From contig VRMN01000010.1 of assembly GCA_008690995.1 (NCBI GenBank), positions 124,001 to 188,000 of the forward strand: a stretch of 64,000 nucleotides of DNA, given 5' to 3'. The stretch's first letter is position 1. Every line of letters begins with the position of its first letter. The notes under the pieces were generated by a model. It did not search any database. It was not told the origin of the DNA and saw only the letters and a list, made by a program, of their open reading frames with translations. Source of the DNA: Porphyridium purpureum. Its lineage: Eukaryota. Positions 10,670 to 51,793 of this stretch are shown here, in pieces. Position numbers and translations under genes: made by a program.

Positions 10670-10751
10670 TACTCACCTCCTCCTCTTCTTCCTTGCTGCC
10701 AAAGGACCGTCGTGCAGCTACCTAACAACTTGCCGGCTCTTATTCCCTCAA

Positions 10752-11058
10752 TGTTATCCGTTCGACCCCAGTCACCTAGAACGGTTCGGTTAATCCAAAA
10801 CCGGTAAGCCGTTAAACCGGTAGACCGTTTAACCGTTTCTAAAAGCTTCTAGAGGTTCCAGAACCTTCGAGACGCGCGCAGAAATGCCAATGATTTGCAT
10901 TGTCATTTCTCTTGGCGCCTTGCTGTCCCTGGCGGAAGTAAGGGTATAAAAAGGCGACGCGCCTGCTCGGACTAGCCGGTCAGGTCTTGCTCGGAGAGAG
11001 AAGAGGTAGGAAGAAGAGACCGACAGTAAAAAAACACTCAGATACACAGCTGATAACA
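10752..11058. mobile_element. LTR copy (same family as 22924-23216 and 23297-23609) without matching TSD
   Basis: TGTTATCCGTTCGACCCC...TGATAACA, with TATAAAA inside. Flanks CTCAA/ATTGA do not match. Confidence 0.75.
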
Positions 11059-16940: not shown

Positions 16941-19136
16941 ATGGCGATCGCGTTGAATTTGGTAGGGCACTCGTATGCGGTGGTCGCCCTGGACTTTTCG
17001 CCCGATGACCGCTTCATCGTGTCCGGAAGCTTTGACGACACGATCAAGGTGTGGGACGCACACAGCGGCGCGTGCTTGCGCACATTGACGGAGCACTCAG
17101 ATTGGCTGAGTGCGGTTCACTTTTCGCCCGACGGCCAGTTCATCGCGTCCGGCAGCCATGACGGAACGATCAAGGTGTGGGACGCACACACCGGCGCGTG
17201 CGTGCGCACATTGACGGAGCACTCAAATTTGGTTTTCACGGTGCGCTTTTCGCCCGATGGCCGGTTCATCGCGTCCGGCGGCAGCGACAGAACGGCCAAG
17301 GTGTGGGATGCATATACCGGCGCGTGCGTGCGTACCGTCATGGGGCACTCAAATTCCGTAAGTTCGGTGTACTTTTCGCCCGATGGCCGCTTCATCGCGT
17401 CCGGCAGCTGGGACAAAACGGTCAGGATGTGGGACACACACACCGGTGCATGCGAGCACACATTGACGGGACACTCAGGTGCGGTAAGCGCGGTGCACTT
17501 TTCGCCCGATGGCCGGTACATCGCGTCCGGCAGCGAGGATACGACGGTCAAGGTTTGGGATGCACAAACCGGCGCGTGCGTGCGCACAGTGGAGGGGCAC
17601 TCAGATGCGGTGAGCGCGATTCACTTCTCGCCCGATGGCCGGTTCATCGTGTCTGGCAGCAAAGACCAAGCGGTCAAGGTATGGGATGCACACACCGGCG
17701 CGTGCGTACGCACATTGATGGGGCACTCGAACTCGGTGCGTGTGGTGCTTTTTTCGCCCGACGGCCGCGTCGTCGCGTCTGGCGGCGGCGACAAAACGGC
17801 CAAGGTGTGGGACACGAGCGACCTCCAGTGTGGCCCCGAAGGAACGTCAAGCGCCGCGGACGAGGAAAATTATTGCAAAGATTATTGGAAGGTCGTCGAC
17901 TCGGATCGGAGCGGAGAGTTGGACGCTCAGAATGCACTGGTATTCTTCTCGAAGGCGCGGTTGCCGATCTCGGTTCTGTATCGGATGTGGGACGAGATTG
18001 CGACAGCTCGCGGCAAGCGCGCGCTCACCTACGACGACTTTGTGCTCGCACTGCGGTGGGTTGCGCTGGCGCAGAACGGCGAGGAGGCGAGCCTCGCACG
18101 TGTGCAGCAAGGTTCGTTGTCCTTGCACGCCAAGATCGACGTACCGGGTTGGAACCGGTTTGACACGGTTTTGCGCACGCCGTTGGAGACAGCGCGCCAT
18201 GAGGAGTACTGGAAGGTGGCTGTCGCAGACGGAAGCGGGGAGGTGGACGTGCATGAAGCGGTAGCGTTTTTGTCCAAGTCTGGACTGCGGAACCGCGTGC
18301 TGAATGAGATCTGGGGCCTTGCAACCAGTCAAGGGGTTTTTTCGTCCCTGGACACGGAGCGGTTCAAGACTGCGTTGCGTCTGGTGGCAATGGCGCAGAA
18401 GGGAATGAGGCTGGATGTGAAGGAGGCGGCAGGTGGCGAGATGGAACTGATTGCGGACTTCAAAATTAATGTCGCGAAGCCGGCGCCCGAGCCGGCGCCC
18501 GAGCAGGCGCCAAAACCGGTGCCGGAGCCTGTGCCAGAACCAGTGCCAGAGCCGGCGCCAGAACCGGTGCCAGAGCCGGTGCCAGAACCGTTGCCAGAAC
18601 CGGTGCCAGAACCGGTGCTAGAGCCGGTGTCGGAGCCGGTGTCAGATCCGTTCAGGCGGTCCCGAAACGACAGCCAGGGTGCTGACTTGAAGAAGACGCT
18701 TGCGGAAACTGCGCTGGATGATCTGACATGTGAGCAGCTGGCTCGAGTGCTGCAAGAGGTCTTCCAGGTTGATGAGGCCTCGGTGAGGAATGTGAGGGAG
18801 CGCAAGTTGAACGGTGACGCGCTGCACGACATGAGGGAGTTTCAAGAGCTTGCAAGGCTGTCATTTCCGGACAAGAAGAAAGTTGAAAAGTGGGTGGCGG
18901 GGCGGAAATCGTACGAAGGATTCGAGGAATACCTGTTTGGCGTGCTTGGTGGTGATTCGGAGCGCGCCGAGCGTGCGTGCGCTTTGCTTTTAGAGTCTCA
19001 CGCTGTGTCGAACTTGGACGAGTGGTTGTGGTTTCGGAAGCAGCCCAGCAAGCGGGCAAATATGAGAGTTATTGTGCGGCGCTTCCCGGAGCTCGGGACG
19101 TGGCCGGGCGGGCCGGAGGTGGAGGACTGGAAGTAG
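16941..19136 (+). CDS. WD40(x7)-EH-EH-linker-SAM-like protein, array copy 3 (most divergent, longest linker)
   Basis: ATG at 16941 ([11 protein letters not shown]); same architecture with PEPV/PEPA linker. Confidence 0.9.
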
Positions 19137-19969
19137 GTCAGCGCTGGTGTCTTTGGGTTCTGGAAGGGCTGAGCACTGTCCCGGTGTCGCGCCGGTCGCT
19201 CGTGAGCGTGTGTCGGGTGCGCACATGAGGGGGCCACTGGCTGAACAGACCCTGCGAACACCGACATGGTTGCTGCGCCTGGGACGGGCTATGTTTTCTG
19301 GCGCGTCGCAATAATGTCATTGTGTTGCTGCGGAAGGCCTGCCATGTAGCACTTTATTGTTGCTGGCTGAAATATCCAAGCGCGGTCGCGCGTTTCCGGC
19401 GCCAGTGGCTGCACGGACTGCGCTCTGCTAGCCACGCGCCAAGTTCATCCTGGTGCTGTCGAAAAGGATGCTCGTGCCTCTGCTCTGATGCGACGGTTAC
19501 ACAACGAGGATTAGGACCAATGGCTCGGTGCAAATGTGCGCCGAAAATCAGCAGGCCTCGCCAGTGTATGTACGTGCAGCCAGATGGGCCTGAGTCCGCG
19601 GATGTTCTGTGCTCCCCAGAACGGTCTGATGAGGGATACTTTGTGTCGTATGTCCACAAAGATGGCTGGTGACATTTTTGGGAGCGTATGCAGGCTCTTT
19701 ACAAATGCCATGCGCACGAACACATTCCTCGAGCAACTTTGGCACTCGGCATCTACGCCTTGCTCGCGCGCCGCGAGCGTGCTTCCTCAAACACACCATG
19801 TGAAGTGCGACCAAATCAAATAGGGGACAGTACGTTTTTTCAAGTTTCACTAGCAAAATGATCTGCTTTACTATAAAAGGGAAAGAGGTCCGGTGAAAAG
19901 GGAATGTGGAATAGGTCGAAACGGATAGGGGACACGGCACATTTCTGGCCATTACTCAGCCATAGAGAA

Positions 19970-20994
19970 TCAGAATTGGTCGCGGTTTCCTTGCACGTAC
20001 GCGCCTTGAAGACACGCACAGTCGAATATTCGTTTCGGCAGCGACGCGTACAAATTGGCCATCACAGGCTGGTCCAAAGTCTCCCAAGCCAGTAAAATGG
20101 CATTCTTGAGCTCTAGCACCGTCTGATACTGCCTTGCACCCTCGTAAACCTTGCGCGCTAGTATTCCCCACAGATTTTCGATAATATTGAAGTCCGGCGA
20201 GTACGCTGGCCAGTCTAGGAGCTCCACATTCTCGTTATTCATGAAATTCTTAACCAGGCAACTTTTGTGCACTGGCGCGTTATTCTGCTGAAAACCCATG
20301 TTCGGGCCCACTATCTGACGGCAGCGGTCCAGCATATTGTCCTCTCGAAGCAGGGAGAAATATTTTGCAGCCGTAAATGACCCTCAATAAAATGAAGGTG
20401 AATCTTTCCTCTTGCAGAAATTGCACTCCAAACCATGCATCCACCGCCGCCGGAATGTCGCGACCAAACGTTCGGAACGTCCGCCGTACGCTCAACCCAC
20501 GTCTTGTGGAAACCATCGGGTCCGTCCAGGTTGAACTTCTTTTCGTCAGTGAACACAATTGCGGCCCAATTGGTTTGTTCCAGCTGATGATGCCTGGCCC
20601 AGGCCAGCCTCTTGAGCTTGCGATTGAGTGTCAGTGGCGGACAAGCTGGAATTTTGCGGTATGCATGCGTGACACTCATTGCCTTCCTGATTGTCGTCAA
20701 GCTTTGGATTGGTTTAGCTCCACGAATTCGCAGAGCTGCTTGAACCTGACGTGCCGTGTGAATGTTCGGAAGCTTAGCGATGTTAAAAATCTTTGTTTTG
20801 ACCGCCTCAGTCAGCTTTGAAGCGTTCACATTGGCATATGTCTGGCAGTAATCGTTTGGAGCCGACAAATAGCGGGAAACCATTTTCTTCGAGTGCCCAA
20901 CCTTGGTCGTAGTGGCTCTCACGCTGTTGCCCGACTCTCGGAGACTCTGAATACGTCCTTTCTCGTCGCCCGTAAGGCCAATATTGCGCCCCAT
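19970..20994 (-). pseudogene. Tc1 transposase pseudogene (frameshift near 20378; catalytic D replaced, QQNNAP)
   Basis: FTDEKKFNLDGPDG in ORF 20311..20994 and WPAYSPDFNIIENLW in ORF 19970..20335. Residual inverted motif AAACGGATA(G/C)GGGACAC at ~19919 and ~21090. Confidence 0.88.
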
Positions 20995-21699
20995 GGAGTC
21001 AAAATCGAGCTTTTCACGAGCTGCGATGGATCCGCACTTCTCCGCTTACACTGAACAGCCGACTTCCGAGATATTTTGCTTTCACGCAGTGTCCCGTATC
21101 CGTTTTGAGCCAAAACTTTCGTCATAACCGTTGCAAACGAACCCGCCCGTTCTACGTTCATTGCAAAAGATCAAAATTTACCGTCAATCAACAATTTTTC
21201 TAGAAACCGTAGATAAAACAAACCACTGAGTCGTTGGAACGGTTACGGGATGATATGTCTTTAGCCGATTTGCCACCTAGACCGATTTTGTGACCGTGGT
21301 GACCGGGTTTTTGGTCCGAACACCCGAGTGCCTGCATCAGGCGGTCTTTAAGTCGATCAACCGTGATAAAACAGGGTCGCGGGGGCAATGCACATGAGGC
21401 ATTCGGACGTGAGCATCCGAAGTCACGCTTTCACCAGTCTCGCGGAGGCCAGGAAGGTGCACATGCTCCGTTTGTAGTTTGCGTTGCATTCCTGCAGCGG
21501 CCTCGGGAAAAGTCTTCAAAAGTAGCGCTGTGCGGGGCTGCGAGCTCATCTAGATAGAGAATATAACAACAGACATAGACAACTGCAAAGGCTGTTCAGT
21601 TCGGCGAAGAATATCGGTACGATTACACACAGGCTTTAACCATGGAACCGTTTGACTGTCCCCTTTCCATTTTCGTCGCACTTTGGTGGCAAAGCTTGT

Positions 21700-22345
21700 G
21701 ATGAAGCACGATTTCTCGACACGTCCTCCAGTGCGTGGCACTTCCCGCAAAAACACGCCACGTCCCTCATGTAGCTCCCGCCACACCCCGAGCAGAGTAT
21801 GGCTTCCGTCAGTACTCCACAGAGAAAACACGAACACGTATATTCCCAAGCCTTTTGCACACAATAATGTCAGCTACCTTTTCATCCTTAAGTTTTCCAG
21901 AACTTTTCATCTTTTCTAGCCCTAAAATAAATGCAGTCATCGTTGGCAGAAATGTAGCGTTAATTGTGATACATTCGAGTGCGAAGGTCGCCATCGTATT
22001 CGTGAGGATTCCAGAACTTCACACTTTTTAGAAAGTATGCAGCTGGCAAAGTTGAGCGTAGCACCGATAGCGAAGGAGCTGAAGACCAACGGCTCAGCTG
22101 TCCCCGCCGCAGCACATTTGCTGTTCGGAAACTTCACTCCGCTGAAAGGAGACCTCCAACCAAGCGACCACCTTTGTAACGCCAACCTTACATGTAAAAC
22201 TTTTCCAAGTCGCACTCCGTACCCAAGCCGCCGTGGTCGCGCTCTGCGCCGAGCTTCGTACGCGGGTTATAACCCAAGAGATGCTTTCTCTTGCGGTCGT
22301 GTCGCCAGCTGACAATCACAGCCGAGAGCTTCCCTTTTCAAGCCA
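21700..22345. repeat. Degenerate repeat, homologous to ~29900-30550 and in its right part to ~165-390
   Basis: Shared blocks AGCTCCCGCCACACCCC, CAGTACTCCACA, CCCAAGCCTTTTGCACACAA, GCCGAGCTTCG. Confidence 0.75.
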
Positions 22346-22923
22346 CAATGTCAAGATTTGGATGTGATAAAATGCATTTCTCCCGCCTCGCACTCATCGT
22401 CTGATCAGACATGCTCCATCTAGAGAACGTAGCTTGGCACGCGCTTATTTAATGATGTTGAGAAGGACGCACAGAAGATTCGCTAGGCGAGGTAGCTCAT
22501 GTAATGTTTTTGTAAAGGACTAGAGAATACACACTGTTGTGATTTCTTGTGGGATTTAGACCGGAGCCTGATCATCTAGGGATCGCAGGAGCTATTTTTG
22601 GACGTTGGTGTGAGCGGGAGACGCAACGGCGCACCGGTGCGTGGACAGGACGTCACGCGACCAAGCTCAGCTTATTTCCGACTTGCCCCAGGCGAGGACT
22701 CGCTGGCTTTGATTGGAAATCCCCGAGGTTATTCCGGCATTGTCGGTAACCTGCCTAACGGCTTGTCGACTACACGTTAAACGTTACCCGACCCGCTACT
22801 CGCGGCGCACCTCAACACGCATACGCGCGTTATGTGTGCACCTGCGACGCTGCGCGGTCGAAGGTGACGCGGCTGGCGCGTGTGTCAATGAAGACGCGCT
22901 CTGATCCTGCGCGCGTCTCCCTT

Positions 22924-23216
22924 TGTTATCCGTTCGACCCCAGTCACCTAGAACGGTTCGGTTAATCCGAAATCGGTAAGCCGTTAACCGGTAGACCGTT
23001 TAACCGTTTCTAGAAGCTTCTAGAGGTTCCAGAACCTTCTAGACGCGCGCAGAAATGCCAATGATTTGCATTGTCAATTCTCTTGGCGCCTTGCTGTCCC
23101 TGGCGGAAGTAACGGTATAAAAAGGCGACGCGCCTGCCCGGACTAGCCGGTCACGTCTTGCTCGGAGAGATGAGAGGAGGCAGAAGAGAGAGAATAAAGG
23201 CACAGCATTGGTAACA
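22924..23216. mobile_element. Solo LTR (293 bp)
   Basis: TGTTA...TAACA termini, perfect 5-bp TSD CCCTT. Confidence 0.9.
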
Positions 23217-23296
23217 CCCTTGCGTGCCGCGCCAATCGCAGGCGCAATGCGCCGTGGGGAGAAAAATGCCTGTCTCGATTTCCAGCCAAGATGCGG

Positions 23297-23609
23297 TGTT
23301 ATCAGCTGTGTATCTGATTTTTTTTTATTGTCGGTCTGTTCATTTTTCCTCTCCTTACCTCTTCTCTCTCCGAGCAAGACCTGATCGGCTTGTCCGGGCA
23401 GGCATGTCGCGATTCTATACCCTTACTTCCACCAGGGACAGGAAGGCGCCACGAGAAATGACAATGCAAATCATTGTCATTTCTGCGCACGTCTAGTTTC
23501 CGGAAGCGCTAGAAGCTTCTAGAAACGGTTAAAATGTCTAACGGTTCAACGGCTTAAAGGTTTTGCATGAACCGAACCGTTCTAGGTGACTGGGGTCGAA
23601 CGGATAACG
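23297..23609. mobile_element. Solo LTR of the same family in opposite orientation (313 bp)
   Basis: TGTTA...TAACG termini, perfect 5-bp TSD TGCGG; reverse-complement homolog of 22924-23216 and 10752-11058. Confidence 0.88.
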
Positions 23610-23873
23610 TGCGGCATCTCGTCCGTCAATTCGACGCCAGATCCTGCGTTTCGGGTGGAATGGTTTAGCGAATGCGCGCACACGAACGATGCGGCTCTGT
23701 TTCGATGCCGGGAGTCGTGATTGGCGACGAGTGTTGCCGCGCGAGACCGAGTGGGCGCGCACGAGTGTGGGGGAGGGCCGGTGGTGAAGGGTTGTTTGCG
23801 GACGGGCGGGTAGGCGGTTACCGCAAAAGACACGAAGCGTGCGTGGCGACGCAGGCGTGGAAGGGAAAAGGGG

Positions 23874-25334
23874 ATGACAACCGCGTTGACGCTGGAGGGT
23901 CACTCAGATGCGGTGAGCGCGGTGCACTTTTCGCCCGATGGCCGGTTCATTGCTTCCGGCAGCGACGACGAGACGGTTAGGGTATGGGACGCAAACACCG
24001 GCGCGTGCGTTCGCACATTGACAGGGCACTCAGGCGCGGTGGGCGCTGTGCAGTTTTCGGTCGACGGCCGCTTTATCGCGTCCGGTAACGACAACAAGAA
24101 GGTGAAGTTGTGGGACACAACCGACCTGAAGTGTGGCCCCGAAGGAACGCCAGGTGACGCTGACGAGGAAAAATATTGCAAGGATTATTGGGAGGTCGCC
24201 GACTCGGATGGGAGCCAAGAGTTGGACGCTCAGGAGGCGCTGGCGTTCTTCTCGAAGGCGCGGCTGCCGATGTCGGTGCTGCATCGGATGTGGGATGAGA
24301 TTGCGATAGCTCGCGGCAAGCGTGCGCTCACCTACGACGACTTTGTGCTCGCACTGCGGTGGGTTGCGCTGGCGCAGAACGGCGAGGAGGCGAGCCTCGC
24401 ACGTGTGCAGCAAGGTTCGCTGTCACTGCGCGCCAAGATCGACGTACCCGGGTGGAACCCGTTCGACAGGGTCGCGCGCACGCTGTCGGAGACAGCGCGG
24501 CACGAGGAGTACTGGAAGATGGCCGACGCAGACGGAAGCGGGGAGGTGGACGTGCATGAAGCGGTAGCGTTTTTGTCCAAGTCTGGACTGCGGAGCTGCG
24601 TGCTGAATGAGATCTGGGGCTTTGCAACCAGCCAAGGGATGTTTTCGTCGCTGGACACGGAGCGTTTCAAGACTGCGCTGCGTCTGGTAGCAATGGCACA
24701 GAAGGAAATGAAGCTGGATGTGAAGGAGGCGGCAGGCGGCGAGATGGAACTGATTGCGGACTTCAAAATCAATGCCGCGAAGCCGGCACCGGAACCGATG
24801 CCGAAGCCGAAGCCGATGCCAGAGCCGATGCCAGAGCCGATGCCAGAGCCGATGCCAGAGCCGGTGCCAGAGCCGGACACGGACTTGGAGAGGATGCTTG
24901 CGGAAACTGCGCTGGATGATCTGACGTGTGAGCAGCTGGCTCGAGTGCTGGAAGAGGTCTTGGAGGTTAACGGGGCCTCGGTGAGGAATGTGAGGGAGCG
25001 CCAGGTGAGCGGTGAGGCCTTGCACGACATGAGGGAGTTCCAGGAGTTTGTGCAGCTGTCGTTCCCGGACAAGAAGAGAGTTGAAAAGTGGGTGGCGGGG
25101 CGGAAATCGTACGAAGGATTCGAGGAATACCTGTTTGGCGTGCTTGGTGGTGATTCGGAGCGCGCCGAGCGTGCGTGCGCTTTGCTTTTGGAATCTCACG
25201 CTGTGTCGAACTTGGACGAGTGGTTGTGGTTTCGGAAGCAGCCCAGCAAGCGGGCAAATATGAGAGTTATTGTGCGGCGCTTCCCGGAGCTCGGGACGTG
25301 GCCGGGCGGGCCGGAGGTGGAGGACTGGAAGTAG
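23874..25334 (+). CDS. WD40(x2)-EH-EH-linker-SAM-like protein, array copy 4 (repeat-contracted, 486 aa)
   Basis: Only two WD40 repeats, essentially identical to repeats 6-7 of copy 2; rest intact. Confidence 0.85.
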   Translation: MTTALTLEGHSDAVSAVHFSPDGRFIASGSDDETVRVWDANTGACVRTLTGHSGAVGAVQFSVDGRFIASGNDNKKVKLWDTTDLKCGPEGTPGDADEEKYCKDYWEVADSDGSQELDAQEALAFFSKARLPMSVLHRMWDEIAIARGKRALTYDDFVLALRWVALAQNGEEASLARVQQGSLSLRAKIDVPGWNPFDRVARTLSETARHEEYWKMADADGSGEVDVHEAVAFLSKSGLRSCVLNEIWGFATSQGMFSSLDTERFKTALRLVAMAQKEMKLDVKEAAGGEMELIADFKINAAKPAPEPMPKPKPMPEPMPEPMPEPMPEPVPEPDTDLERMLAETALDDLTCEQLARVLEEVLEVNGASVRNVRERQVSGEALHDMREFQEFVQLSFPDKKRVEKWVAGRKSYEGFEEYLFGVLGGDSERAERACALLLESHAVSNLDEWLWFRKQPSKRANMRVIVRRFPELGTWPGGPEVEDWK

Positions 25335-39480: not shown

Positions 39481-40092
39481 GCCTTGCCTCGGCACCTACT
39501 TTCACAACCGCCCACACACACACACTCCACGAACGCCATCCTTTCCCTTTGCTGCGCGGCACTCATCACTTGACCAACACCCAGTACCGTGGCAGTTTCA
39601 GCGCGCATCATTTCGCGAGCCCACGGCACCTGTGTTCTGTCATATGCAGAACAAATCACCGCGCCGACAGATTGCGCTGCATGCTGCTGCCCACCATCAC
39701 CGCCACATGCCAAAACCTACCCCCTCAACCGCCACCCCGCAACCCTTCAATTCTCAAACCCTAAATTACCCTAATCTCCACCACACGCTTTTCTGCCCTC
39801 TATATGTAAACCGGCTCGTTTACATAGGAAACTGTAAAAGTACAGTGAAACATAGTAGAAGTACAGTGTAAATATGCGCGTTTGAAGATGGTTTACATAT
39901 AGGCCATTGGCTCGGTAAAGCGTGCGAGTTTGATAAGAGGTAACGATGGGGGTACAGTGAAGATGATGAGTCGTGGAAGTACACTTGTCACTGTACTTGT
40001 GTTCTGTAAGGCGGGTGTACCGCGGTGTGACGCGGTTATTGAGATGCACGGATTGGTGGGTGGCGACGCCAAGCGAGAACGCGCCGCGCGCC

Positions 40093-42515: not shown

Positions 42516-42855
42516 CTTCACGCTGAGTTTGTGTCCGATGGAAAGGACCAAGCCAACGGGTTCGGCCTGATGTGAGGAAAGAATAGAATATAGTCACCTC
42601 CCCAGCGTAGCCACGCGATGGACCCTCATGCAGTGGCTCCAGGTGCGCGTCCCACGTTGCTCTTGGCGATGCTTATGAGCTCTTTTTCACGCTATCCACT
42701 CCCTGCGTCTCTTCCACCTTCACTTCGTAGAGCTTCGCGATAATAGAAGCTCAAGTCAACCGACGCAGTCTCCTGCTTGGCATTCACGTTGCGCGGCGTG
42801 CCTTGGACGAGTGAGCCATTCAAGTTGGCTCATTGCTCCGCTTGTCGAGTAGCTC

Positions 42856-44037
42856 ATGGAACGTGTGGTAGTGTGCGTGACTGGCGCGACCGGCTTTGTC
42901 GGCGGCCACATTGCGGTCGAGCTGCTCAAGAGCGCACCGTTTCATTGGGTGGTACGCGCGTGCGTTCGATGCTCCGCAGACGACGCGAAACTGTCGTTCT
43001 TGCGCGCCGCCGAGCAAGAGCGTGAGCAGAAGGAGGGGCGTGCGGCAGCCTGCGCGAGGCTCGAGATCGCTCGCTTCGACATTGATGACGACAACAATGA
43101 GCAACAAGACCGCGATGCATTCCGCGACGCAGCGATCGTGGTGCACGCGGCGGCCAAGGTGGCGTTCGAGAGCTCGCAGGCCGACACCGAGATCGTGCAA
43201 CCCAGTTTGCGCGGCACGCAGCGCGTGTTGATGCATCTGGACCGGAGCACCACCCGGCTGCTGCTGTTTCTGTCCTCCATCGCCGCAGTGCGTTCATTTG
43301 ACCAGCCCGACACGCACGTCTTCACCGAGGCCGACTGGAACTCGTGGAGTACGCTCGCCAACGGCGACGCGTACGGCTACGCCAAGACGGCCGCAGAGCG
43401 TATGGTGCGTGACTTTGCACAAGCCGAGCTTCAAAAGCAGCAGCAGCATCGAGGGCACGTACCGCTTCAAGTGGTTAGCGTGAACCCAGGCGTGTGCTTG
43501 GGTCCGGCACTCGCCAAGGCTCACACAAAGGCATCACCGCTGATTGTGCGGCAAATGCTTTTCGCCAACAGTCTTGTTGCGGACCAGCAGCTCGCGGTTG
43601 TGGATGCGCGCGATGTGGCCCGATTTGTTCGCATGGTCGCTGAACGTGCCCTTGCAGGCCCGAGTGCTACCTACGTTGACTACCAGCGGTTTGTTCTCGT
43701 GTGCGACAACTTGTTGCTGTCCGAGCTCGCTGCTCTGCTGCACAATTGCGCCGACCTGGCGCAATACGACGTGCGAGCTGTTTTCGACCATCCTTTCAAG
43801 CTGTGGTGCAAGAGCTGGCTAATGTCGCCCTTCTGGCGCGAGAGCTTTGCGCGGCGCTGCGTGCTGGACGGCTCGCACGCGGTGAGCGAATTCCGGCAAG
43901 CTGAGAGCGCTTCCGGGGTGGAAGTCGATACGGGTTTTTCCTACACGGATATTCGCGACTCGCTGCGCGATACCGCACTCACAATGATCCGCGAGTTTGG
44001 TATCACGCCTAGAGCGAAAGCAACGGCTGCGTCTTGA
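42856..44037 (+). CDS. NAD(P)-dependent epimerase/dehydratase, DFR/CCR-like extended SDR
   Basis: VTGATGFVG, SSIAA, YGYAK, NPG, VDARDVA. Confidence 0.92.
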   Translation: MERVVVCVTGATGFVGGHIAVELLKSAPFHWVVRACVRCSADDAKLSFLRAAEQEREQKEGRAAACARLEIARFDIDDDNNEQQDRDAFRDAAIVVHAAAKVAFESSQADTEIVQPSLRGTQRVLMHLDRSTTRLLLFLSSIAAVRSFDQPDTHVFTEADWNSWSTLANGDAYGYAKTAAERMVRDFAQAELQKQQQHRGHVPLQVVSVNPGVCLGPALAKAHTKASPLIVRQMLFANSLVADQQLAVVDARDVARFVRMVAERALAGPSATYVDYQRFVLVCDNLLLSELAALLHNCADLAQYDVRAVFDHPFKLWCKSWLMSPFWRESFARRCVLDGSHAVSEFRQAESASGVEVDTGFSYTDIRDSLRDTALTMIREFGITPRAKATAAS

Positions 44038-44115
44038 AGAACATGTTATGTTGTGTTATTTTAGCATTTAGGAAGCCAGGTATAGTATGCGCCTCTTCTC
44101 ATGTTTCTTTTGTTT

Positions 44116-45843
44116 TTAAAAGTACAGGTCGTGCTCGCCGGCATTGATGCGCTTGAGCTTGCGCTCGTATGCCTGCTTTGCGCGCTCGCTCCCGATTGTT
44201 TCGCTCTCTTGTTGCACGACCTTTTCACCAAGCGCGCGCGTTCGCTCGGACGCGTAGTCAATCAAGTACTCTTGCAGCGTCAGCAGGCCGTTCGGATGGC
44301 AGTAGTTATGGATGTCGCCCTTCTTGGCAATCTTCATGAATGCCTCTCCCGTGCGCCCCTTGCGATAGCAGGCTGTGCACCAGCTCGGCACAAATCCGTC
44401 CTCCATGAGATCGTGCACAATCTCGTCCATCGCGCGGTGGTCCTGCAGTGTAAATTGTGCGAGCATGTCCTGAGATTCTTCTTGGCACTTTTCTGGCAGC
44501 ACGTTGGCCTTCTTGTCCTCCTTGGAATACGAGCCGACATCTGTCTTGCTGCCGGCGCTCATCTGGCTGACACCCAAGTGCAGCAGCATCTTTCGCGTCT
44601 GCGGGTTTTCGCGCGTGCTGAGGATCATGCCGGTGTACGGTACGGCACAGCGAAGCACAGCCACAAGTTTCATGAAGTCGGCGTCGCTCACTGGGTTGGG
44701 CCCGCCGTTGAGCGAATCTGGCGCCCCGAGCGCCGGCTGGATGCGCGGAATACTGACCGTGTGCGGGCCGGCGCCGTACGTCTGGTCTAGGTGCTGAGCG
44801 TGCTGCAGCATGCCTAGCACCTCGAAACGGTAGTCATATAGGCCAAACAAGGCACCGATGCCCACATCGTCGACGCCCGCGGTCTGCGCGCGATCCATTG
44901 TCAGCAGGCGATAGTCATAGTCGCTCTTGGGGCCCGCCGGGTGGACGCGCCTGTACGTTTCGCGGTGGTACGTTTCATGGAACAGCGTATAGGTCCCGAC
45001 GCAGTTGGTGGCCTTGAGCCGCCGGAAATCTGACACGGAAAGCGTCGGAATTTCAACATTAATGCGCCGAATGCCACCGCACGGCTCGGTGCGCACTTGC
45101 GACACAATTTGGAGTGCCTCGAGCGTCTGTTCGAAAGAATACTTGGGGCTCTCGCCGGCGACCAGCAGCAGCCGGCGGTGGCCCTGCCGTTGGAGCGCCT
45201 CCACCTCGCGCACGAGCTGGTCATTGGAGAGTGTGCCGCGCGGCGCGGCGTGGTTTGACGCGCGGAACGAGCAGTACGTGCACTGGTTGACGCAGTACGA
45301 GCCCACATACAGCGGCGCGAACAGCACGATCCGGTTTCCGTAAATGCGCTCCTTGATCCGGAACGCGGTGTCAAAAAGCAGCTGCATGAGCAGCTTGTTC
45401 GCCGAGTCGACATTCAGCAGCGTGGCAGCCTCGAGCACCGTCAAGCCTTGCACGTACTCCGAGCCGGACTGCGGCGGCACCGGCGCGCCTGATGTGCCTA
45501 CCTTGAGCAGCGCGTGGTCCTCTGCCTTTTGCAGCAGGTCCTTGACGAGCACGGCGTCCTTTGCATTTTCCTTTGTGACAAACAGCGCCTCGTGGATCTC
45601 GGCCTCGCGCACAATGTCTCGCGGCGACTTGAACACATGCTGAGGCTCCTTCTCGACGGACCACTTTGCGCCGCGCCGCGGCACATCATCCCACCGCGCG
45701 CGGCGGCCGTACCGCGCCATCCCCACCATCCTCATCACGCCCATCGCGCACCCGGCGGCGAAGCCCATGCCTCCTCCGCTCGTCACCATCCCGGCCGCGC
45801 CCACGGCGCTCCCAACCACCGCACTCATTGTCATCGCTGCCAT
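44116..45843 (-). CDS. hydG: [FeFe]-hydrogenase H-cluster radical SAM maturase HydG with N-terminal presequence
   Basis: YGNRIVLFAPLY...CVNQCTYC (CX3CX2C); GPHTVSIPR His; C-terminal CTAC-X22-C auxiliary cluster motif, which ThiH lacks; CHPNGLLTLQEYL. Confidence 0.93.
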   Translation of the reverse strand: MAAMTMSAVVGSAVGAAGMVTSGGGMGFAAGCAMGVMRMVGMARYGRRARWDDVPRRGAKWSVEKEPQHVFKSPRDIVREAEIHEALFVTKENAKDAVLVKDLLQKAEDHALLKVGTSGAPVPPQSGSEYVQGLTVLEAATLLNVDSANKLLMQLLFDTAFRIKERIYGNRIVLFAPLYVGSYCVNQCTYCSFRASNHAAPRGTLSNDQLVREVEALQRQGHRRLLLVAGESPKYSFEQTLEALQIVSQVRTEPCGGIRRINVEIPTLSVSDFRRLKATNCVGTYTLFHETYHRETYRRVHPAGPKSDYDYRLLTMDRAQTAGVDDVGIGALFGLYDYRFEVLGMLQHAQHLDQTYGAGPHTVSIPRIQPALGAPDSLNGGPNPVSDADFMKLVAVLRCAVPYTGMILSTRENPQTRKMLLHLGVSQMSAGSKTDVGSYSKEDKKANVLPEKCQEESQDMLAQFTLQDHRAMDEIVHDLMEDGFVPSWCTACYRKGRTGEAFMKIAKKGDIHNYCHPNGLLTLQEYLIDYASERTRALGEKVVQQESETIGSERAKQAYERKLKRINAGEHDLYF

Positions 45844-46448
45844 CCTTCCGCACCCTAGTCCTCTTCCTCATTCGCTGTCTCACCCATCCCCACCTCCCAT
45901 ACTCATGCCTATGCCCACGTCTATGCCCACGCACCCGCCCGCGCGCGCTCTATGTCACACGGTCCCTCTCTGCGCATCTTATACACCTTCTCCACCGCCA
46001 CCGCGTCACCCGCTCCACCAATTCACCGCCACACCCACCCCACCCATCCACGACACTGCATCCACCGCACCAACCCCGCAACCCCCTCCCCCCTCTCGGT
46101 TACATCTCCCCTCTCTCTCTCTGCCATAAGCTCTCCATAAACCTCACCCCCGTGTAACCTGTCCTCTCCCCCCTCTCTCTCTTTCTCTCTGTCTCACCCC
46201 TTCCGCTTCCACTTTCACATAACCACCAACACACGTATCCTTGCAACACCTGCGCTCCTTCTCTCCCTCTCTCCTTCTCTCTGTGTCTTTTGCTTCGCCT
46301 CCTTCTTTCCCTTCTCGATCCTCCTGAATTCTCCGTGCCACCGCAGCAATACGTGTCCGCACCACGCAAGTTTGACTTGCACGCCCACAAACAACACACG
46401 CCATTTCTACGTGTCACCCACACCACGCTATTTATAGCTACCAGCCAT

Positions 46449-46479
<31 letters not shown>

Positions 46480-46480
46480 C
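46449..46480. repeat. (CA)n microsatellite in the hydG-hydE intergenic region
   Basis: ACACAC run. Confidence 0.85.
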
Positions 46481-47035
46481 GCCATACCAAAACATGATAT
46501 CTGCCAAACACCACCGCCTCCAAATGAACACACGACGCAACACAACCGCGGTTGCAGGACACGTGCACGCGTGATATGAAAAGGGGAGGATTCACACGTG
46601 GCGCAGAGTGGTGAGGATGGGCGCTGGCCGAAAAGATGGTAGCCCACTAGCATGGAAGAAGAAGGGCCGCGTGTAAACCGGGTGTAAACCGTGTGGGACC
46701 CGCGTCACATCTGTGTATCAGATGTGCAAGGGCGCACCGGTATAAGGGACAAGAGGAAAAATGTACAGCGCAGCGGAGGATACTTTGAGGCAAGGTGGAT
46801 GGATGTAAACCTGACAGTGTACTTGTCGCGCGTGGCAGAAGTGGCGGCGCGGATTGCGTTTTTATGTGGTGCGGTGCGGTGCGGTGCGCAGGGGCTCGCG
46901 CAGATCCCTGCATGCGCTGTGCGGCGGAAGATGATGGGCGCGGGTGTGAATGTCAGTGCATGTGAGAATTTGTGCGTGCGTGCGTGAAAGGATTGACAGA
47001 TTGAGAGATAGAGAGATACACACAGGGAACGTGTC

Positions 47036-48379
47036 ATGGCGGCGTCGGCAGCGTCCGCGGCGCAGCTCGCGTCGAGATTGGGCGACGTGTTGCGCCGGCC
47101 GCTGCTTTCGGATGCCGTGCTCGCGCAGCGCGTCGCTCCGTTGGGCGCCGTGCTGGGCCATTCGGTCGAACAGCTCATGGAGCGGCTGCGCCGCGCGCGA
47201 GGCGTGGAGAACGCGCACGACCAGACGCACCAGCGCACCGCGCCAGTCTTGTCGCATATCAGCGCCGCGCAAATGAAGCACCTGCTGGACACAACAGATG
47301 TCCGAGAGACCGCGGCGCTGTTTGCGTACGCAGACGCGGTCAGTGCCGCGTACTTTGACAACCGCATTTTCTTCCGCGGGATCGTCGAGTTTTCAAACGT
47401 ATGCCAGAAAAACTGCGGCTACTGCGGCATTCGCAGAGCCACAAAGCTCCATCGATACACTATGCCCAAGCACGAGATCCTCGACTGCGCGCGCTTCTGC
47501 ATGGAGCGTGGCTACGGAACCATTATGCTGCAGTCAGGAGAGCTCAACACGCCGCAGCGCATCGACTGGCTTGTCGACCTGATCGGCGAGATCAAGCAAA
47601 CGACCAAGCAGATGGACACGAAGCATCCCGAGGCGCCCAAGGGGCTGTGCGTCGCGCTCAGCGTGGGTGAGCTCGACGAGCTCGACTACCGTCGCCTGTT
47701 CGAGGCCGGCGCGTCGCGCTATCTGCTGCGCATCGAGACGTCCAACCCAACGCTGTACGCGCAGCTGCATCCGCCAGACCACTTGTGGCAACGGCGCGTC
47801 GAGTGTCTGCGCGCACTCAAACGCGTCGGCTTTCAGCTCGGCACGGGCGTCATGATTGGACTGCCCGGTCAGACCACCGACGACCTCGTATCGGACCTGC
47901 ACTTTTTCCGCGATATCGATGCGGACATGATTGGCATGGGCCCGTACGTATATCAAGAAGGTACGCCTGTGGGCGATGCCCACAAAAAGCTCCGTGAGCG
48001 CGCCGGACAAACCGAGCAAGACAAAATGGAACAAAACGCACGCATGGTGGACTTGACCACGCGAATGTACGCGCTCGCGCGACTGTTCCTCGGTGCCGTC
48101 AACATACCAGCCACCACGGCGCTCCAGGCGCTGGACCCTGTGGGACGCGAGACCGCGCTGCAGCGCGGTGCAAATATTCTCATGCCAATTGTGACCCCCA
48201 CACAGTTCCGCAAGGAGTACCAGCTGTATGAAGACAAGCCATGCATCGACGAAGGGGCCGCCGAGTGCAGCGCGTGCCTCGCCGGGCGGGTCAAATGGGC
48301 CGGGAAAGAGCTCGCGCTGGGCGAATGGGGCGACCCACCACACTTTCACCAGGCAAGCCAGGTGTGCGAAACAGGTTAA
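47036..48379 (+). CDS. hydE: [FeFe]-hydrogenase radical SAM maturase HydE, stand-alone (not fused to HydF)
   Basis: RGIVEFSNVCQKNCGYC; LQSGE; YLLRIETSN; IGMGPY; ATTAL; YQLY followed by CX7CX2C. Confidence 0.9.
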   Translation: MAASAASAAQLASRLGDVLRRPLLSDAVLAQRVAPLGAVLGHSVEQLMERLRRARGVENAHDQTHQRTAPVLSHISAAQMKHLLDTTDVRETAALFAYADAVSAAYFDNRIFFRGIVEFSNVCQKNCGYCGIRRATKLHRYTMPKHEILDCARFCMERGYGTIMLQSGELNTPQRIDWLVDLIGEIKQTTKQMDTKHPEAPKGLCVALSVGELDELDYRRLFEAGASRYLLRIETSNPTLYAQLHPPDHLWQRRVECLRALKRVGFQLGTGVMIGLPGQTTDDLVSDLHFFRDIDADMIGMGPYVYQEGTPVGDAHKKLRERAGQTEQDKMEQNARMVDLTTRMYALARLFLGAVNIPATTALQALDPVGRETALQRGANILMPIVTPTQFRKEYQLYEDKPCIDEGAAECSACLAGRVKWAGKELALGEWGDPPHFHQASQVCETG

Positions 48380-48975
48380 AAGTTGCTGTGCCGGCGAGGC
48401 AGCAGCGAAAGTCAAGACAGCCGTGCGAATCTAGGTGCGCGCCCGCTTCGCTGCCCAGTCAAGAATTCATGCGGGACGCGAAGAGAACCGTGTGCAAACA
48501 TCCGTTGCGTCTGAAAGCACATCTTTTGACGCACGCCCGGGGAATGATATCGCGGTCAGGACGCCGATCGAATGGAGTGAAAGGGATAAAAATCCATCTG
48601 CATCGACGTTGGACGGTGTCGAGTTCATGATGCTGCTTTCAACGGCATGATTTCAGGCTTGGTCATGCGCTGCACGCCGCAGGTGCACAGGAGCTTTTTC
48701 TCAGCATTGCCGACTCTTGCTGAGACAAAAAAGCTGTTCATTGGCCTTGGCGCCGCTCTCTGCACCGCGTGCTGCATGCAACGAATCTCATACAGTAGCC
48801 CGCTGCCAGTGCATTGCCTTTGGGGGTCTAGCCAGCTCGGGTATATCATCCCGCACAGTCAAGCAGTTGCGGATAGTGCGCAACGTCAATGGATGTCTAA
48901 TTTACACGCGCACTTTTTTGCAAAATATCGAACACCAAGGCATTCAGGACACTGCACCTTGCCGCCGGTAGATAC

Positions 48976-50526
48976 TCAACGTTTACGCGTCCCTGCACCA
49001 CGTGCTTGTGCAGTCAAGCGCGGAAATTCGTAGCCGACTTCGGCCAAATCGGTCAAAAACTTGTGGTTTTGCATGACATCGCCAAGCTCAATCATGCCCA
49101 ATTCATACATACTGATGTACAACAGGTCCAGGCAGCTCGAAAGTCGGTCGAGCAGGCATGTCCAGTCGTTCAGCGCGTTGACAAGTGCGTCAGCGTGCGT
49201 GTACAGCAGGCGTTCCGCCTCAAGATCCTTCATAAAGTCGTGCTCATTTCGATACTGCACAACCCACGGCTTGGTAAAGGCGACGTACATGCCCGTGTCC
49301 CACAGAAGCCGCTGGCCAAAGTACGAGCGCCAGATATCCGACACACGCCCAGGCACGGTGGTCGGCAGGTACAGGCTCCAGAATGCGCTGTGGCGGAAGA
49401 GCGTCGCCTGTGCGTTGTACGGGCTCATCACGCCCGCCGGAATAACCGTGACTGTACGATTACCGCGAAACTCGACGGGGCGAGCCCGGGTGAGCCGGTA
49501 CACAGCGTCCACATCCGGGTCGTGATCTGCGAGGGACTGGAACACGGCCACATCACGCAGCCGTATCCGAGTGCGCTCCGTTTTGCGGTCGCGCGGCCGC
49601 GTGCGTGCCTCGTCGTTCAGAATTTCCGTCAGCGGATAGCCGCGCGGCCAAATAAAGTCAGCAGAGTCTGGGTCCGGATCCAGCGCATTCGCTGCCAAAC
49701 GCATCAATGCGTCGCGATGCGCTCGCGACGCCGGCAATCCGTCCAACTCGGGAACTGTCTTGGCTCCAAAGTACAGGTACGGGTTCGTGACCTTGGCCGT
49801 GCCGCCGCCAGGCGGCTTGAGCTGGTGCAGTCGGTTCATCTTACGCTGCGCGCTGAGCAGCGCGGTGGCGTTCAGAAAGCGGAAACATTGCTTTTCCCAG
49901 CACTCGTCGCGCGTGCGCAGCCGGTTGTCATCGTCTGTGTCATATATCACCTTGGCGCCGCGCCACACGGCGTACAGAAAGCCCAGGTTTTTGCGGCCAA
50001 AGTGGTTCCACGGCGTGCTGGCCACTGAGCGGAACGGCAGCGCCAGTTGGTCGTCAGGCGATAGGTACACCACACGGCCATCGAAATCGTGTGGTAAATA
50101 GCTGCGCGGCGACTTCTTATCGCCCACCACCACTGTGCACCATCCGTCCGACACGCTCAGCGCCGCGAGCTGGTACACAAGCACGGTCGGCTTGAAAATG
50201 CTCGTGATCACGGCCCATCGAGAGCACGCGGGCTCGATTTCGCGTGAAGCACTTGGCGTCCGTCTGCGCGGCCGGATAGCGTCCAGAGCATCCCAATGCG
50301 TAAATGTGCGCACACGAGCCGCCTGAAACGACGCGCCCTGCACGTGATTGGACGCGGACAGCCGCTCCACAAACACACTCGACACATGCCCAGGCGCTGT
50401 TGGCGCGTCGCGCACCGTGTGCAAGGCAAAAATGGCGAGCAAAGTGGACAAGAATCCGACAGAAAAGGCCGAGACGCGTTGCGCGTACCCTGACGTACCG
50501 CCCGCGACGCTCCCTTGACCCGTCAT
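48976..50526 (-). CDS. STELLO/DUF288-like glycosyltransferase, type II membrane protein
   Basis: N-terminal TM; VVVGDKKSP, RKNLGFLYA, YDTDDDN, WPRGYPL, DPDVDA, SDIWRSY. Confidence 0.85.
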   Translation of the reverse strand: MTGQGSVAGGTSGYAQRVSAFSVGFLSTLLAIFALHTVRDAPTAPGHVSSVFVERLSASNHVQGASFQAARVRTFTHWDALDAIRPRRRTPSASREIEPACSRWAVITSIFKPTVLVYQLAALSVSDGWCTVVVGDKKSPRSYLPHDFDGRVVYLSPDDQLALPFRSVASTPWNHFGRKNLGFLYAVWRGAKVIYDTDDDNRLRTRDECWEKQCFRFLNATALLSAQRKMNRLHQLKPPGGGTAKVTNPYLYFGAKTVPELDGLPASRAHRDALMRLAANALDPDPDSADFIWPRGYPLTEILNDEARTRPRDRKTERTRIRLRDVAVFQSLADHDPDVDAVYRLTRARPVEFRGNRTVTVIPAGVMSPYNAQATLFRHSAFWSLYLPTTVPGRVSDIWRSYFGQRLLWDTGMYVAFTKPWVVQYRNEHDFMKDLEAERLLYTHADALVNALNDWTCLLDRLSSCLDLLYISMYELGMIELGDVMQNHKFLTDLAEVGYEFPRLTAQARGAGTRKR

Positions 50527-50665: not shown

Positions 50666-51793
50666 TCACACTTCGGAGAGCTTGACGGGGCGGTTCTCCT
50701 TGGCGCTGAGGCTGGCTGCCTTTGCCGCGACAATGGGTGCGCGGCCGTCGGCGCCCGTGCACGGTGGCGGCGCGCCGGTCTTGACCATCTCGACAAACGC
50801 GTCGATGGCGCCCGCGTACGCGTCGAGGTAGCGGTCCATGAAAAAGCTGTACGGCAGGCCGGCCTGCACGCCGGTGGCCGAGCTGAGTGTCACCGTGTTC
50901 GGCGCCTTGTTGTTGCCCGTGAGAATACCGTCGCGCCCAAACACCTCGATGCGCTGATCGTAGCCTAGCGCGCAGCGCCGCGAGTTCTGGATCGTGCCAA
51001 ACGATCCGTCGCTCATCTTGAGCGTCATGATCAGACTGTCGAGGTCGTTGGCGCCCTTGGCCTCCGGGTCGAACGCCGTGCCGCAAACGTACACCTCGTC
51101 GATCTCGGCGCCCGTCACAAAGCGCGCCATGTCAAAGTCGTGCGACGCCATGTCTAAGAAGATGCCGCCGGACTTTTCGAGGTACTCCTGCGGTGGGGGC
51201 GCGGGGTCGCGCGACACGATCTGGAACATGCGGACTGGTCCAATCGCGCCTGCCTCGATCTGCTTCTTGATGTTCAAAAAGTTCGAGTCGAAGCGGCGCT
51301 GGAAGCCGACCATGAGGCGGGACTTGCTCTTTTCCACGGCAGCCAAGCACTCGTCGATCACGGCCAGGTCGTTGGAGATGGGCTTTTCGCAGAAAATGTC
51401 CTTGCCTGCCGCGGCGCACGCCATGATCTGCTCGGCATGGAACGGCGTGGGCGACCCAATCACGACTCCCTGGATGCGCGGGTCCTCGACCATTTTCTTC
51501 CAGTCCTTCTCATATTCGACGCCATAGGCGTTTGCCAGCTTGAGCCCGAACTCCTCAAACACATCACTGACGGCAACAAGCGTGGCGCCCTTCGCGGCGG
51601 CGACCGACTTGGCATGCACCTGTCCAATGCGCCCGCACCCAATCACGCCAATCCCGACGCCCGACCCCGCCGCAGCATCCGCCATCCGCAGCGCCTGCGT
51701 GCGCGGGCGCGTGCTTCCACGCGCAACCGGCATCACCGCATCCCGCGCGGCGCGGCGCGTGCCAGCGCCACGGCTGCGCCGCGTGCCGCGCAT
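50666..51793 (-). CDS. iolG: myo-inositol 2-dehydrogenase (Gfo/Idh/MocA family); true start may be 51861 via a frameshift
   Basis: GCGRIG, CEKP, GFQRRFD, SRDP, SGGIFLDMASHDFD, GYDQRIEV. Confidence 0.88.
   Translation of the reverse strand: MRGTRRSRGAGTRRAARDAVMPVARGSTRPRTQALRMADAAAGSGVGIGVIGCGRIGQVHAKSVAAAKGATLVAVSDVFEEFGLKLANAYGVEYEKDWKKMVEDPRIQGVVIGSPTPFHAEQIMACAAAGKDIFCEKPISNDLAVIDECLAAVEKSKSRLMVGFQRRFDSNFLNIKKQIEAGAIGPVRMFQIVSRDPAPPPQEYLEKSGGIFLDMASHDFDMARFVTGAEIDEVYVCGTAFDPEAKGANDLDSLIMTLKMSDGSFGTIQNSRRCALGYDQRIEVFGRDGILTGNNKAPNTVTLSSATGVQAGLPYSFFMDRYLDAYAGAIDAFVEMVKTGAPPPCTGADGRAPIVAAKAASLSAKENRPVKLSEV

What the first reader, a model, noticed from the sequence alone, without database searches (positions are those of the whole stretch)
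44116..48379. Intact head-to-head hydG / hydE pair ([FeFe]-hydrogenase maturation) in an apparent red alga
Seen: two intact intronless radical SAM genes diverging from a 1.19-kb shared region. HydG keeps CX3CX2C, the GPHT histidine and CX2CX22C; HydE keeps CX3CX2C, YxxY and CX7CX2C. Established: HydE/F/G build the H-cluster; in Chlamydomonas HYDG and a fused HYDEF are adjacent and divergent; red algae are not generally regarded as H2 producers. Inference: this host either has unrecognised anaerobic H2 metabolism with an ancient conserved divergent arrangement, or has kept the maturases for another role. The neighbours are ordinary eukaryotic genes, so bacterial contamination is unlikely.
Basis: partly seen in the sequence, partly recalled or inferred. 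Interest (0 to 1): 0.9.

Follow-up and report, generated by a model that had tools for sequence, protein, structure and literature searches.

The report
Red alga's hydrogenase-building gene pair
Two intact genes sit back to back in a single-celled red alga and likely build the iron cofactor of a hydrogen-producing enzyme; its close relatives carry them too, which contradicts reviews that say red algae lack this machinery, although a 2019 supplementary table already listed hydG, hydF and the hydrogenase itself in Porphyridium.

Summary
hydG (44116-45843, -) and hydE (47036-48379, +) are uninterrupted ORFs diverging across 1,192 bp. Both pass their NCBIfam cut-offs and fail ThiH, BioB and PylB; all named motifs are present. 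Both fall in a supported clade with Porphyridium aerugineum and Erythrolobus (plus Timspurckia for HydG). The host is a Porphyridiales red alga, probably Porphyridium, and contamination is unlikely. hydG variants in public runs are mostly synonymous (8 of 12). 'Unrecognised' is only partly true: Gould et al. 2019 list expressed HydA, HydF and HydG in P. purpureum (supplementary table 4), though two reviews call red algae (nearly) devoid of such enzymes. In ten searches I found no report of red-algal HydE, the head-to-head pair, or the order-wide retention. hydG and hydE(F) carry consecutive gene numbers in 6 of 8 other eukaryote genomes; orientation was not testable. The compartment is open: relatives' N-termini look mitochondrial, this HydG's looks more plastid-like, and PFO was not listed for P. 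purpureum. H2 production is not shown here. A new member of a known kind.

The parts
44116..45843 (-). hydG CDS, 575 aa, radical SAM H-cluster maturase
   Evidence: colinear with contigs of 4 of 4 runs laid, no joints
45664..45843 (-). HydG N-terminal extension, 60 aa, likely organelle-targeting; Gly/Ala/Met/Val/Cys-rich, first basic residue at 38, internal Met26-Gly-Phe
   Evidence: targeting inferred
45271..45294 (-). HydG radical SAM CX3CX2C (184-191)
44977..44979 (-). HydG His289 in place of an otherwise invariant Gln (FQE[T/S]Y strand)
   Evidence: Gln in 119 of 119 homologues; no variant listed here in 4 runs
44758..44769 (-). HydG GPHT (359-362); His361 aligns with the GPHT His of structure 4WCX, the dangler-Fe ligand (role recalled)
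44299..44379 (-). HydG auxiliary-cluster CX2CX22C (489-515)
   Evidence: present in 119 of 120 HydG hits, absent from three ThiH-like locus proteins
45844..47035 (.). 1,192-bp divergent spacer with both 5' regions; low-complexity tracts; three TGTAAACC copies on the hydE side; likely two back-to-back or one bidirectional promoter
   Evidence: promoter function inferred
47036..48379 (+). hydE CDS, 447 aa, stand-alone (not fused to HydF)
47036..47125 (+). HydE N-terminal ~30 aa, Ala/Leu/Arg-rich and amphipathic (moment 0.58), possible short presequence
   Evidence: inferred
47402..47425 (+). HydE radical SAM CX3CX2C (123-130)
48218..48277 (+). HydE YQLY (395-398) and second-cluster CX7CX2C (403-414)

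Best explanation
These are the host's own nuclear hydG and hydE genes, likely inherited from the Porphyridiales ancestor, and their products likely mature an [FeFe]-hydrogenase encoded elsewhere in the genome, which would act as an H2-releasing electron valve inside an organelle. Shown here: identity, intact motifs, divergent layout, Porphyridiales clade, mostly synonymous variation in hydG. Inferred from bacterial biochemistry (PMC8162317, PMC11736057): HydG cleaves two tyrosines and loads CO and CN onto the His-bound fifth iron of its auxiliary cluster, releasing Fe(II)(Cys)(CO)2CN. HydE activates this and cleaves its cysteine, giving Fe(I)(CO)2(CN)S units that pair up. [quoted passage not shown] The back-to-back layout would co-regulate the two enzymes that act in direct succession (inferred). 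Compartment, my odds: mitochondrion about 45%, plastid about 35%, dual or cytosol about 20%.
For: Cut-offs and structures. Trees: HydG window + P. aerugineum 98/96, five-row Porphyridiales clade 99/99 (FastTree 125 rows; IQ-TREE quick 31 rows); HydE four-row clade 98 and 96/91, within a eukaryote clade set off from 9 prokaryote or unnamed outgroup rows at 96/96. Taxa named. Selection: 12 substitutions in the hydG CDS in runs X5 and X14, 8 synonymous, pN/pS 0.16, p = 0.002. HydE departs from 0 of 67 and HydG from 3 of 156 conserved columns; 27 of 120 HydG rows depart as often or more. The stretch is held by 20 runs of 7 studies, 2 on record as RNA. HydA, HydF and HydG transcripts are published for P. 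purpureum. Acanthamoeba HydA and HydE-G are shown to be mitochondrial.
Against: No whole genome is held, so hydA and hydF were not seen in this assembly; neither is in the window (6 HydF queries without a hit, no H-cluster motif in six frames; motifs recalled), and no named red-algal HydF was among the 120 shown of 1,171 hits. That the host is P. purpureum is inferred, not shown. His289 replaces an invariant Gln. PFO/PNO and PFL have no P. purpureum entry in the visible parts of Gould's tables, so the usual fermentative donor seems missing. The N-termini of the two window proteins point different ways. No enzyme activity or H2 was measured.
Confidence: 0.8

Rival explanations
1. Plastid version of the same chemistry (Gould's model): the maturases are imported into the plastid and the hydrogenase takes electrons from photosystem I via ferredoxin at light/dark transitions, in air, with no link to anaerobic growth. 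This competes with the mitochondrial reading on location and donor, not on enzyme identity.
For: The window HydG N-terminus is an outlier among its orthologues: 33 of the first 40 residues are G/A/M/V/C, first basic residue at 38, like the window's plastid enzyme IspH (23 of 40, first basic at 26), and it has an internal Met-Gly-Phe. No PFO listed for P. purpureum. Expression at 21% O2 is published. Gould states plastid location for the algae studied to date.
Against: Phe lies in the first 10 residues of only 4 of 9 red-algal and 0 of 4 glaucophyte maturases, against 85% and 49 of 77 for plastid transit peptides (PMC4510345; p = 0.006 and 0.017; rows are related and the start sites are gene models). 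10 of 13 have Arg/Lys in the first 10 residues. The Phe28 codon reads Leu in 2 of 4 runs. The comparison with IspH is a single reference.
Confidence: 0.35
2. The maturases are kept for a role other than making an active H2-evolving enzyme (for example CO/CN or sulfur-iron chemistry, or maturing a sensory HydA), or are slowly decaying.
For: His289 for invariant Gln; long P. aerugineum HydE with low-complexity insertions; apparent lack of PFO; in Nannochloropsis oceanica, which has a full hyd cluster, H2 appeared only with methyl viologen (PMC3499364).
Against: All cluster ligands are intact; pN/pS 0.16; the same position is Ile in this HydE and His in the solved HydE, so His is probably tolerated; HydA and HydF are expressed in P. 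purpureum; retention in four other Porphyridiales species.
Confidence: 0.12
3. Contamination or a recent transfer from a bacterium or another protist.
For: Intronless genes of a family that is mostly bacterial; reviews report the genes missing from red algae.
Against: Both genes group with other Porphyridiales in trees; the HydG branching puts the two Porphyridium-like rows together and Erythrolobus with Timspurckia; host-like GC3; on a 768,875-base contig among eukaryotic genes; contigs in runs X1 and X14 span hydG and its neighbour. The 2021 review sampled Galdieria as its rhodophyte row.
Confidence: 0.02

Closest known systems
Porphyridium purpureum HydG (evm.model.contig_2123.4), HydF (contig_3384.19) and HydA (contig_2663.1) in Gould et al. 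2019, PMC6732389, supplementary table 4
   Same: Same genus by my trees, possibly the same gene: a red-algal HydG expressed in air, with HydA and HydF under other contig numbers.
   Different: HydE was not among the genes in the tables I saw, and I saw no word on gene order, motifs, targeting or other red algae. Identity with the window gene was not tested.
Cyanophora paradoxa HydG/HydE (tig00020995_g16913/g16914) with HydF on another contig (tig00020516_g9962)
   Same: Stand-alone HydE numbered next to HydG, HydF elsewhere; 66% (HydG) and 55% (HydE) identity; neighbouring clade in both trees.
   Different: Glaucophyte; has PFO and PFL; orientation not seen; the grouping with reds also holds non-algal rows and is not starred.
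Chlamydomonas reinhardtii HYDG / HYDEF
   Same: Same chemistry; relatives Edaphochlamys, Gonium, Tetradesmus and Micractinium show consecutive hydG/hydEF numbers. Divergent orientation is recalled from Posewitz 2004, not read.
   Different: HydE fused to HydF; plastid location; PFO present; a separate branch in both trees.
Nannochloropsis hydA-hydE-hydF-hydG cluster (PMC3499364, PMC3293424)
   Same: Unfused HydE clustered with HydG in an alga.
   Different: There all four genes cluster; here hydA and hydF are absent from the 64-kb window.
Acanthamoeba castellanii mitochondrial HydA/HydE/HydF/HydG (PMC13632651)
   Same: Unfused maturases in an aerobe with full respiration; HydE 51% identical.
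   Different: Location and H2 production are shown there, with PFOR as donor; hydG lies seven gene numbers from hydE.

Membership tests
HydG (TIGR03955) | Score above curated cut-off over the full model | tested here: met
   505.6 vs 312.15, model 9-470 of 470
HydG (TIGR03955) | Radical SAM CX3CX2C | tested here: met
   184-191
HydG (TIGR03955) | C-terminal auxiliary-cluster CX2CX22C and conserved His for the fifth iron | tested here: met
   489-515 and His361, aligned with 4WCX; ligand roles from PMC8162317 passages and recall
HydG (TIGR03955) | Family-invariant residues retained | tested here: inconclusive
   153 of 156 conserved columns kept; Gln289His is unique among 120; effect unknown
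HydG (TIGR03955) | Tyrosine cleavage to CO/CN and synthon release | not testable with these tools
   needs enzyme assay
ThiH (TIGR02351) | Score above cut-off; no C-terminal auxiliary-cluster domain | tested here: not met
   265.1 vs 380; window protein has the extension that the three ThiH-like rows lack and branches apart from them
HydE (TIGR03956) | Score above curated cut-off | tested here: met
   305.1 vs 254.6
HydE (TIGR03956) | CX3CX2C, YxxY, optional second-cluster CX7CX2C | tested here: met
   123-130, 395-398, 403-414; 0 of 67 conserved columns changed
HydE (TIGR03956) | Activation of the HydG synthon | not testable with these tools
   needs enzyme assay
BioB / PylB | Score above cut-off | tested here: not met
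   69.4 vs 225; 108.6 vs 348.2
Green-algal HydEF fusion | GTPase HydF fused after HydE | tested here: not met
   stop at 48377-48379; no HydF hit in the window
Complete [FeFe]-hydrogenase system | hydA and hydF in the same genome | tested here: inconclusive
   no genome held; absent from window; published for P. purpureum
Complete [FeFe]-hydrogenase system | H2 production | not testable with these tools
   only a second-hand listing for P. cruentum
Conserved eukaryotic hydG-hydE(F) linkage | Adjacent genes in distant eukaryotes | tested here: met
   consecutive gene numbers in 6 of 8 genomes where both were visible; from names only
Conserved eukaryotic hydG-hydE(F) linkage | Head-to-head orientation in distant eukaryotes | not testable with these tools
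   no eukaryotic loci retrieved (one search gave 7 loci, none with a hit above 46% identity); Naegleria reported only in unchecked scan notes

The most novel reading that the evidence does not exclude
Porphyridiales red algae (and glaucophytes) keep a complete, PFO-independent [FeFe]-hydrogenase system in the mitochondrion rather than the plastid, fed by respiratory NADH or ferredoxin, and the head-to-head hydG-hydE pair is a relic of gene order from early eukaryotes shared with Naegleria, Cyanophora and green algae. Plastid hydrogenase would then be a green-algal retargeting, possibly repeated in this lineage.
Probability: 0.3. Interest if true: 0.8.

Novelty: new member of a known kind. Interest (0 to 1): 0.42.

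Why it matters
Reviews from 2019 and 2021 treat red algae as the oxic end-member without Fe-S anaerobic enzymes, but the Porphyridiales (at least three genera) keep hydG, and hydE was seen in two of them, with signs of vertical inheritance and selection. This makes loss, not recent gain, the likelier story for other red algae and bears on the LECA-versus-transfer debate about eukaryotic hydrogenases. Porphyridium is cultured industrially and transformable (recalled), so where a PFO-less algal hydrogenase sits and what feeds it is directly testable.

Tried and rejected
Whole-genome search for hydA, hydF and PFO: no genome held. HydF search with a fragment of an algal HydEF: no named red alga among 120 shown of 1,171; not evidence of absence. 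Scan of metagenome contigs for linked eukaryotic loci: 7 loci, 35-46% identity, used only as outgroups. Mixture-model tree on 125 rows did not finish; replaced by FastTree on all rows and IQ-TREE on 31 selected rows. P0122 was left out of the HydE tree because it is internally duplicated. The HydG set has almost no named bacteria, so eukaryote monophyly of HydG was not tested. Contig depth (366 vs 60 in X5; 83 vs 24 in X6) was not used to rank expression, as the tool warns against it. GTAC (Chlamydomonas hypoxia core, recalled): 2 in the spacer against 4.1 expected, no enrichment. No informative long repeat in the spacer. N-terminal motif counts did not settle the compartment, and they discriminate poorly: 3 of 7 mitochondrial-lineage controls also have Phe in the first 10. 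No structure or complex prediction was run, as sequence identity to solved structures was decisive. Papers not held: three look-ups for the P. purpureum genome paper and Pagnier 2022. Earlier scan findings: nothing for this genome, for the word search or for HydE.
Full report
Observation. The window holds hydG at 44116-45843 (-, 575 aa) and hydE at 47036-48379 (+, 447 aa), with start codons 1,192 bp apart. HydG scores 505.6 bits on TIGR03955 (cut-off 312.15) and fails ThiH (265.1 vs 380); HydE scores 305.1 on TIGR03956 (cut-off 254.6) and fails PylB and BioB. The best solved structures are HydG 4WCX (E 1e-137) and HydE 7O1P/3CIX (E 2e-69).

Surroundings. Pfam on 28 of the 46 ORFs of 150 aa or more (most of the rest overlap longer ORFs) shows a copia-type element, a Tc1-type transposase, four WD40 genes, IspH, an MCM protein, a K+ channel, Med10, an SDR, STELLO, an inositol dehydrogenase, a BRCT protein and a ubiquitin-conjugating enzyme. 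GC3 of hydG and hydE (0.79, 0.77) is within the 0.64-0.84 of ten neighbouring host genes. Eight of ten window proteins looked up are in NCBI, UniRef and EukProt on a 768,875-base contig. Six eukaryotic HydF proteins gave no tBLASTn hit in the window, and recalled H-cluster motifs were absent from all six frames. No whole genome is held, so hydA, hydF and PFO could not be sought elsewhere in this assembly.

Host and history. The top HydG hits (120 shown of 7,998) are Porphyridium aerugineum (77%), Erythrolobus australicus (71%), an unnamed sister of it (68%), Cyanophora (66%) and a protein whose cluster holds Timspurckia oligopyrenoides (65%). HydE hits (120 shown of 4,370) include P. aerugineum, E. 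australicus and a protein whose cluster holds E. madagascarensis; no Timspurckia HydE was among them. In HydG trees the window pairs with P. aerugineum (98 FastTree, 96 SH-aLRT) inside a five-row Porphyridiales clade (99, 99). In HydE trees the four Porphyridiales rows group at 98 (119 rows, P0122 dropped) and 96/91 (31 rows), and the 22 ingroup rows are set off from 9 prokaryote or unnamed outgroup rows at 96/96. So the host is a Porphyridiales red alga. It is not P. aerugineum, and it is probably P. purpureum, which I recall as the Porphyridium with an annotated genome; this is inference. Reds lie near glaucophytes in both trees (91 for HydG, 92/90 for HydE), but those groups also hold Stygiella, anaerobic fungi or Nannochloropsis, and green algae branch elsewhere. 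The trees therefore support vertical descent within Porphyridiales and do not decide between LECA origin and eukaryote-to-eukaryote transfer.

Selection and expression. The stretch 43500-49000 is held by 20 of 24 listed runs from 7 studies; 2 holders are on record as RNA, 12 are guessed RNA and 6 are unlabelled. Four were laid on 42700-45900: all cover hydG with no joints. In X5 hydG is on its own contig (44092-45848); in X1 and X14 one contig spans hydG and the convergent SDR gene. Runs X5 and X14 (one study) differ from the window at 12 places in the hydG CDS: 8 synonymous, 4 not, against 411 and 1,314 sites (pN/pS 0.16, p = 0.002). One replacement (codon 413) is seen in all four runs, so the window letter may be private or an error. 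HydE changes none of 67 conserved columns, and HydG 3 of 156, which 27 of 120 rows match or exceed. The oddity is His289 for a Gln found in 119 of 119 homologues, with no variant listed in the four runs. The aligned position is Ile in this HydE and His in the solved HydE, so it is probably tolerated (inference).

Gene order. From gene numbers alone, hydG and hydE or hydEF are consecutive in Cyanophora (g16913/g16914 on one contig, HydF on another), Chrysophaeum (003954-6: F, G, E), Tetradesmus, Micractinium sp., Edaphochlamys and Gonium; seven apart in Acanthamoeba; and far apart in the 'm51a1' genome (Mastigamoeba, recalled): 6 of 8. Four of the six are chlorophytes and not independent. Nannochloropsis has a published four-gene cluster (passages of PMC3499364 and PMC3293424). 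Two earlier scan notes report a divergent pair in Naegleria gruberi (unchecked). The Chlamydomonas divergence is recalled. I could not read orientation outside this window. Linkage is thus a recurring, partly known feature; its age is not shown.

Mechanism. [quoted passage not shown] The window proteins keep the ligands for these steps; activity is inferred. Both have N-terminal extensions. Among Porphyridiales and glaucophyte maturases, Phe lies in the first 10 residues in 4 of 9 and 0 of 4, below the 85% and 49 of 77 reported for their plastid transit peptides (passages of PMC4510345), and 10 of 13 have an early Arg/Lys. That leans mitochondrial, as does the glycine cleavage system being mitochondrial (recalled) and the proven case of Acanthamoeba (passages of PMC13632651). 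Against it, this HydG is the outlier: 33 of its first 40 residues are G/A/M/V/C with no basic residue before 38, like the window's IspH, and it has an internal Met-Gly-Phe, although that Phe is Leu in 2 of 4 runs. The test is crude (3 of 7 mitochondrial-lineage controls also have early Phe). PFO and PFL show no P. purpureum entry in the visible eukaryote entries of Gould's tables (cells cut), which favours photosystem I ferredoxin, or else NADH, as donor. The compartment is unresolved.

Prior knowledge. Gould et al. 2019 (PMC6732389; abstract, parts 1-3 of 5 of the text, supplementary table 4 whole, searches in the other supplements; figures and supplementary file 3 not visible) list P. purpureum transcripts for HydA, HydF and HydG at 21% O2. 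HydE does not occur as a gene in the supplements searched. PMC8003979 (passages) says these enzymes seem absent from rhodophytes, with Galdieria as the row shown; PMC6856715 (section 9) calls red algae nearly devoid of anaerobic pathways; PMC10744039 (passages) says larger hydrogenases were attributed to rhodophytes, citing Meuser 2011 and Price 2012 (not read); PMC12304615 (passages) lists P. cruentum as an H2 producer via another review. PMC13632651 lists no red alga among eukaryotes with demonstrated hydrogenase activity, and mentions a companion localisation survey that the search did not return and that may cover red algae. PMC10349137, PMC11314055 and PMC3897525 (passages) added nothing on red algae. 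Ten searches found no paper on red-algal HydE, this gene pair or Porphyridiales-wide retention; the library lacks most subscription journals, and it missed Gould 2019 itself because the genus is misspelt there.

Verdict. A real, intact, host-encoded HydG/HydE pair in a Porphyridiales red alga. The family and the existence of a red-algal hydrogenase set are known, if buried; the stand-alone HydE, the head-to-head layout shared in outline with Cyanophora, the order-wide retention and the targeting question appear to add to it. Interest 0.42; new member of a known kind. Most novel reading not excluded: a mitochondrial, PFO-independent hydrogenase system in red algae, probability 0.3, interest 0.8.

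Noticed in passing
window 44977-44979 (-): HydG His289 replaces a Gln found in 119 of 119 homologues; no variant listed in four runs.
   Followed up: partly
window 46672-46811, 39805-39897: TGTAAACC occurs 5 times in the window (0.94 expected, 0 of 100 shuffles reach 5): three upstream of hydE and two upstream of the K+ channel gene. Picked after seeing it, so the significance is inflated; possible shared regulatory element.
   Followed up: partly
window 46900-47035: A possible small upstream exon and GT-AG intron before the hydE ATG (pyrimidine-poor, ends ...CAG ten bases before ATG); the hydE 5' structure is unverified.
   Followed up: no
window 5852-25334: Tandem family of four WD40 genes (710, 694, 731, 486 aa; the last with an EH/EF-hand domain) interrupted by a Tc1/mariner-type transposase at 9494-10507 and flanked by a copia-type ORF at 1605-4688.
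   Followed up: no
window 50666-51793 (-): Inositol 2-dehydrogenase passing the bacterial IolG cut-off (TIGR04380, 384.6 vs 355), GC3 0.84; possible old bacterial transfer.
   Followed up: no
P0009/P0010 and P0159 (protein hits): HydG and HydE of anaerobic gut fungi (Neocallimastigomycota) fall near glaucophyte and red-algal sequences; HydE of Anaeromyces joins the glaucophytes at 98/95 on a long branch.
   Followed up: no
P0054, P0039, P0061, P0022, P0028, P0037, P0044 (protein hits): HydG homologues in Chara, Coleochaete, Paulinella, diatoms (Seminavis, Amphora) and pelagophytes, lineages often listed as lacking maturases; transcriptome entries may be contaminants.
   Followed up: no
P0081/P0089/P0252 (protein hits): Chromera and Vitrella HydG, and the fused Vitrella HydEF, group with green algae in both trees, hinting at a green-algal source in chromerids.
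   Followed up: no
P0003/P0124 (protein hits): Erythrolobus australicus HydE and HydG transcripts carry near-consecutive numbers (259 and 265; P000293 and P000295), which could reflect touching 5' ends in the assembly or be chance.
   Followed up: no
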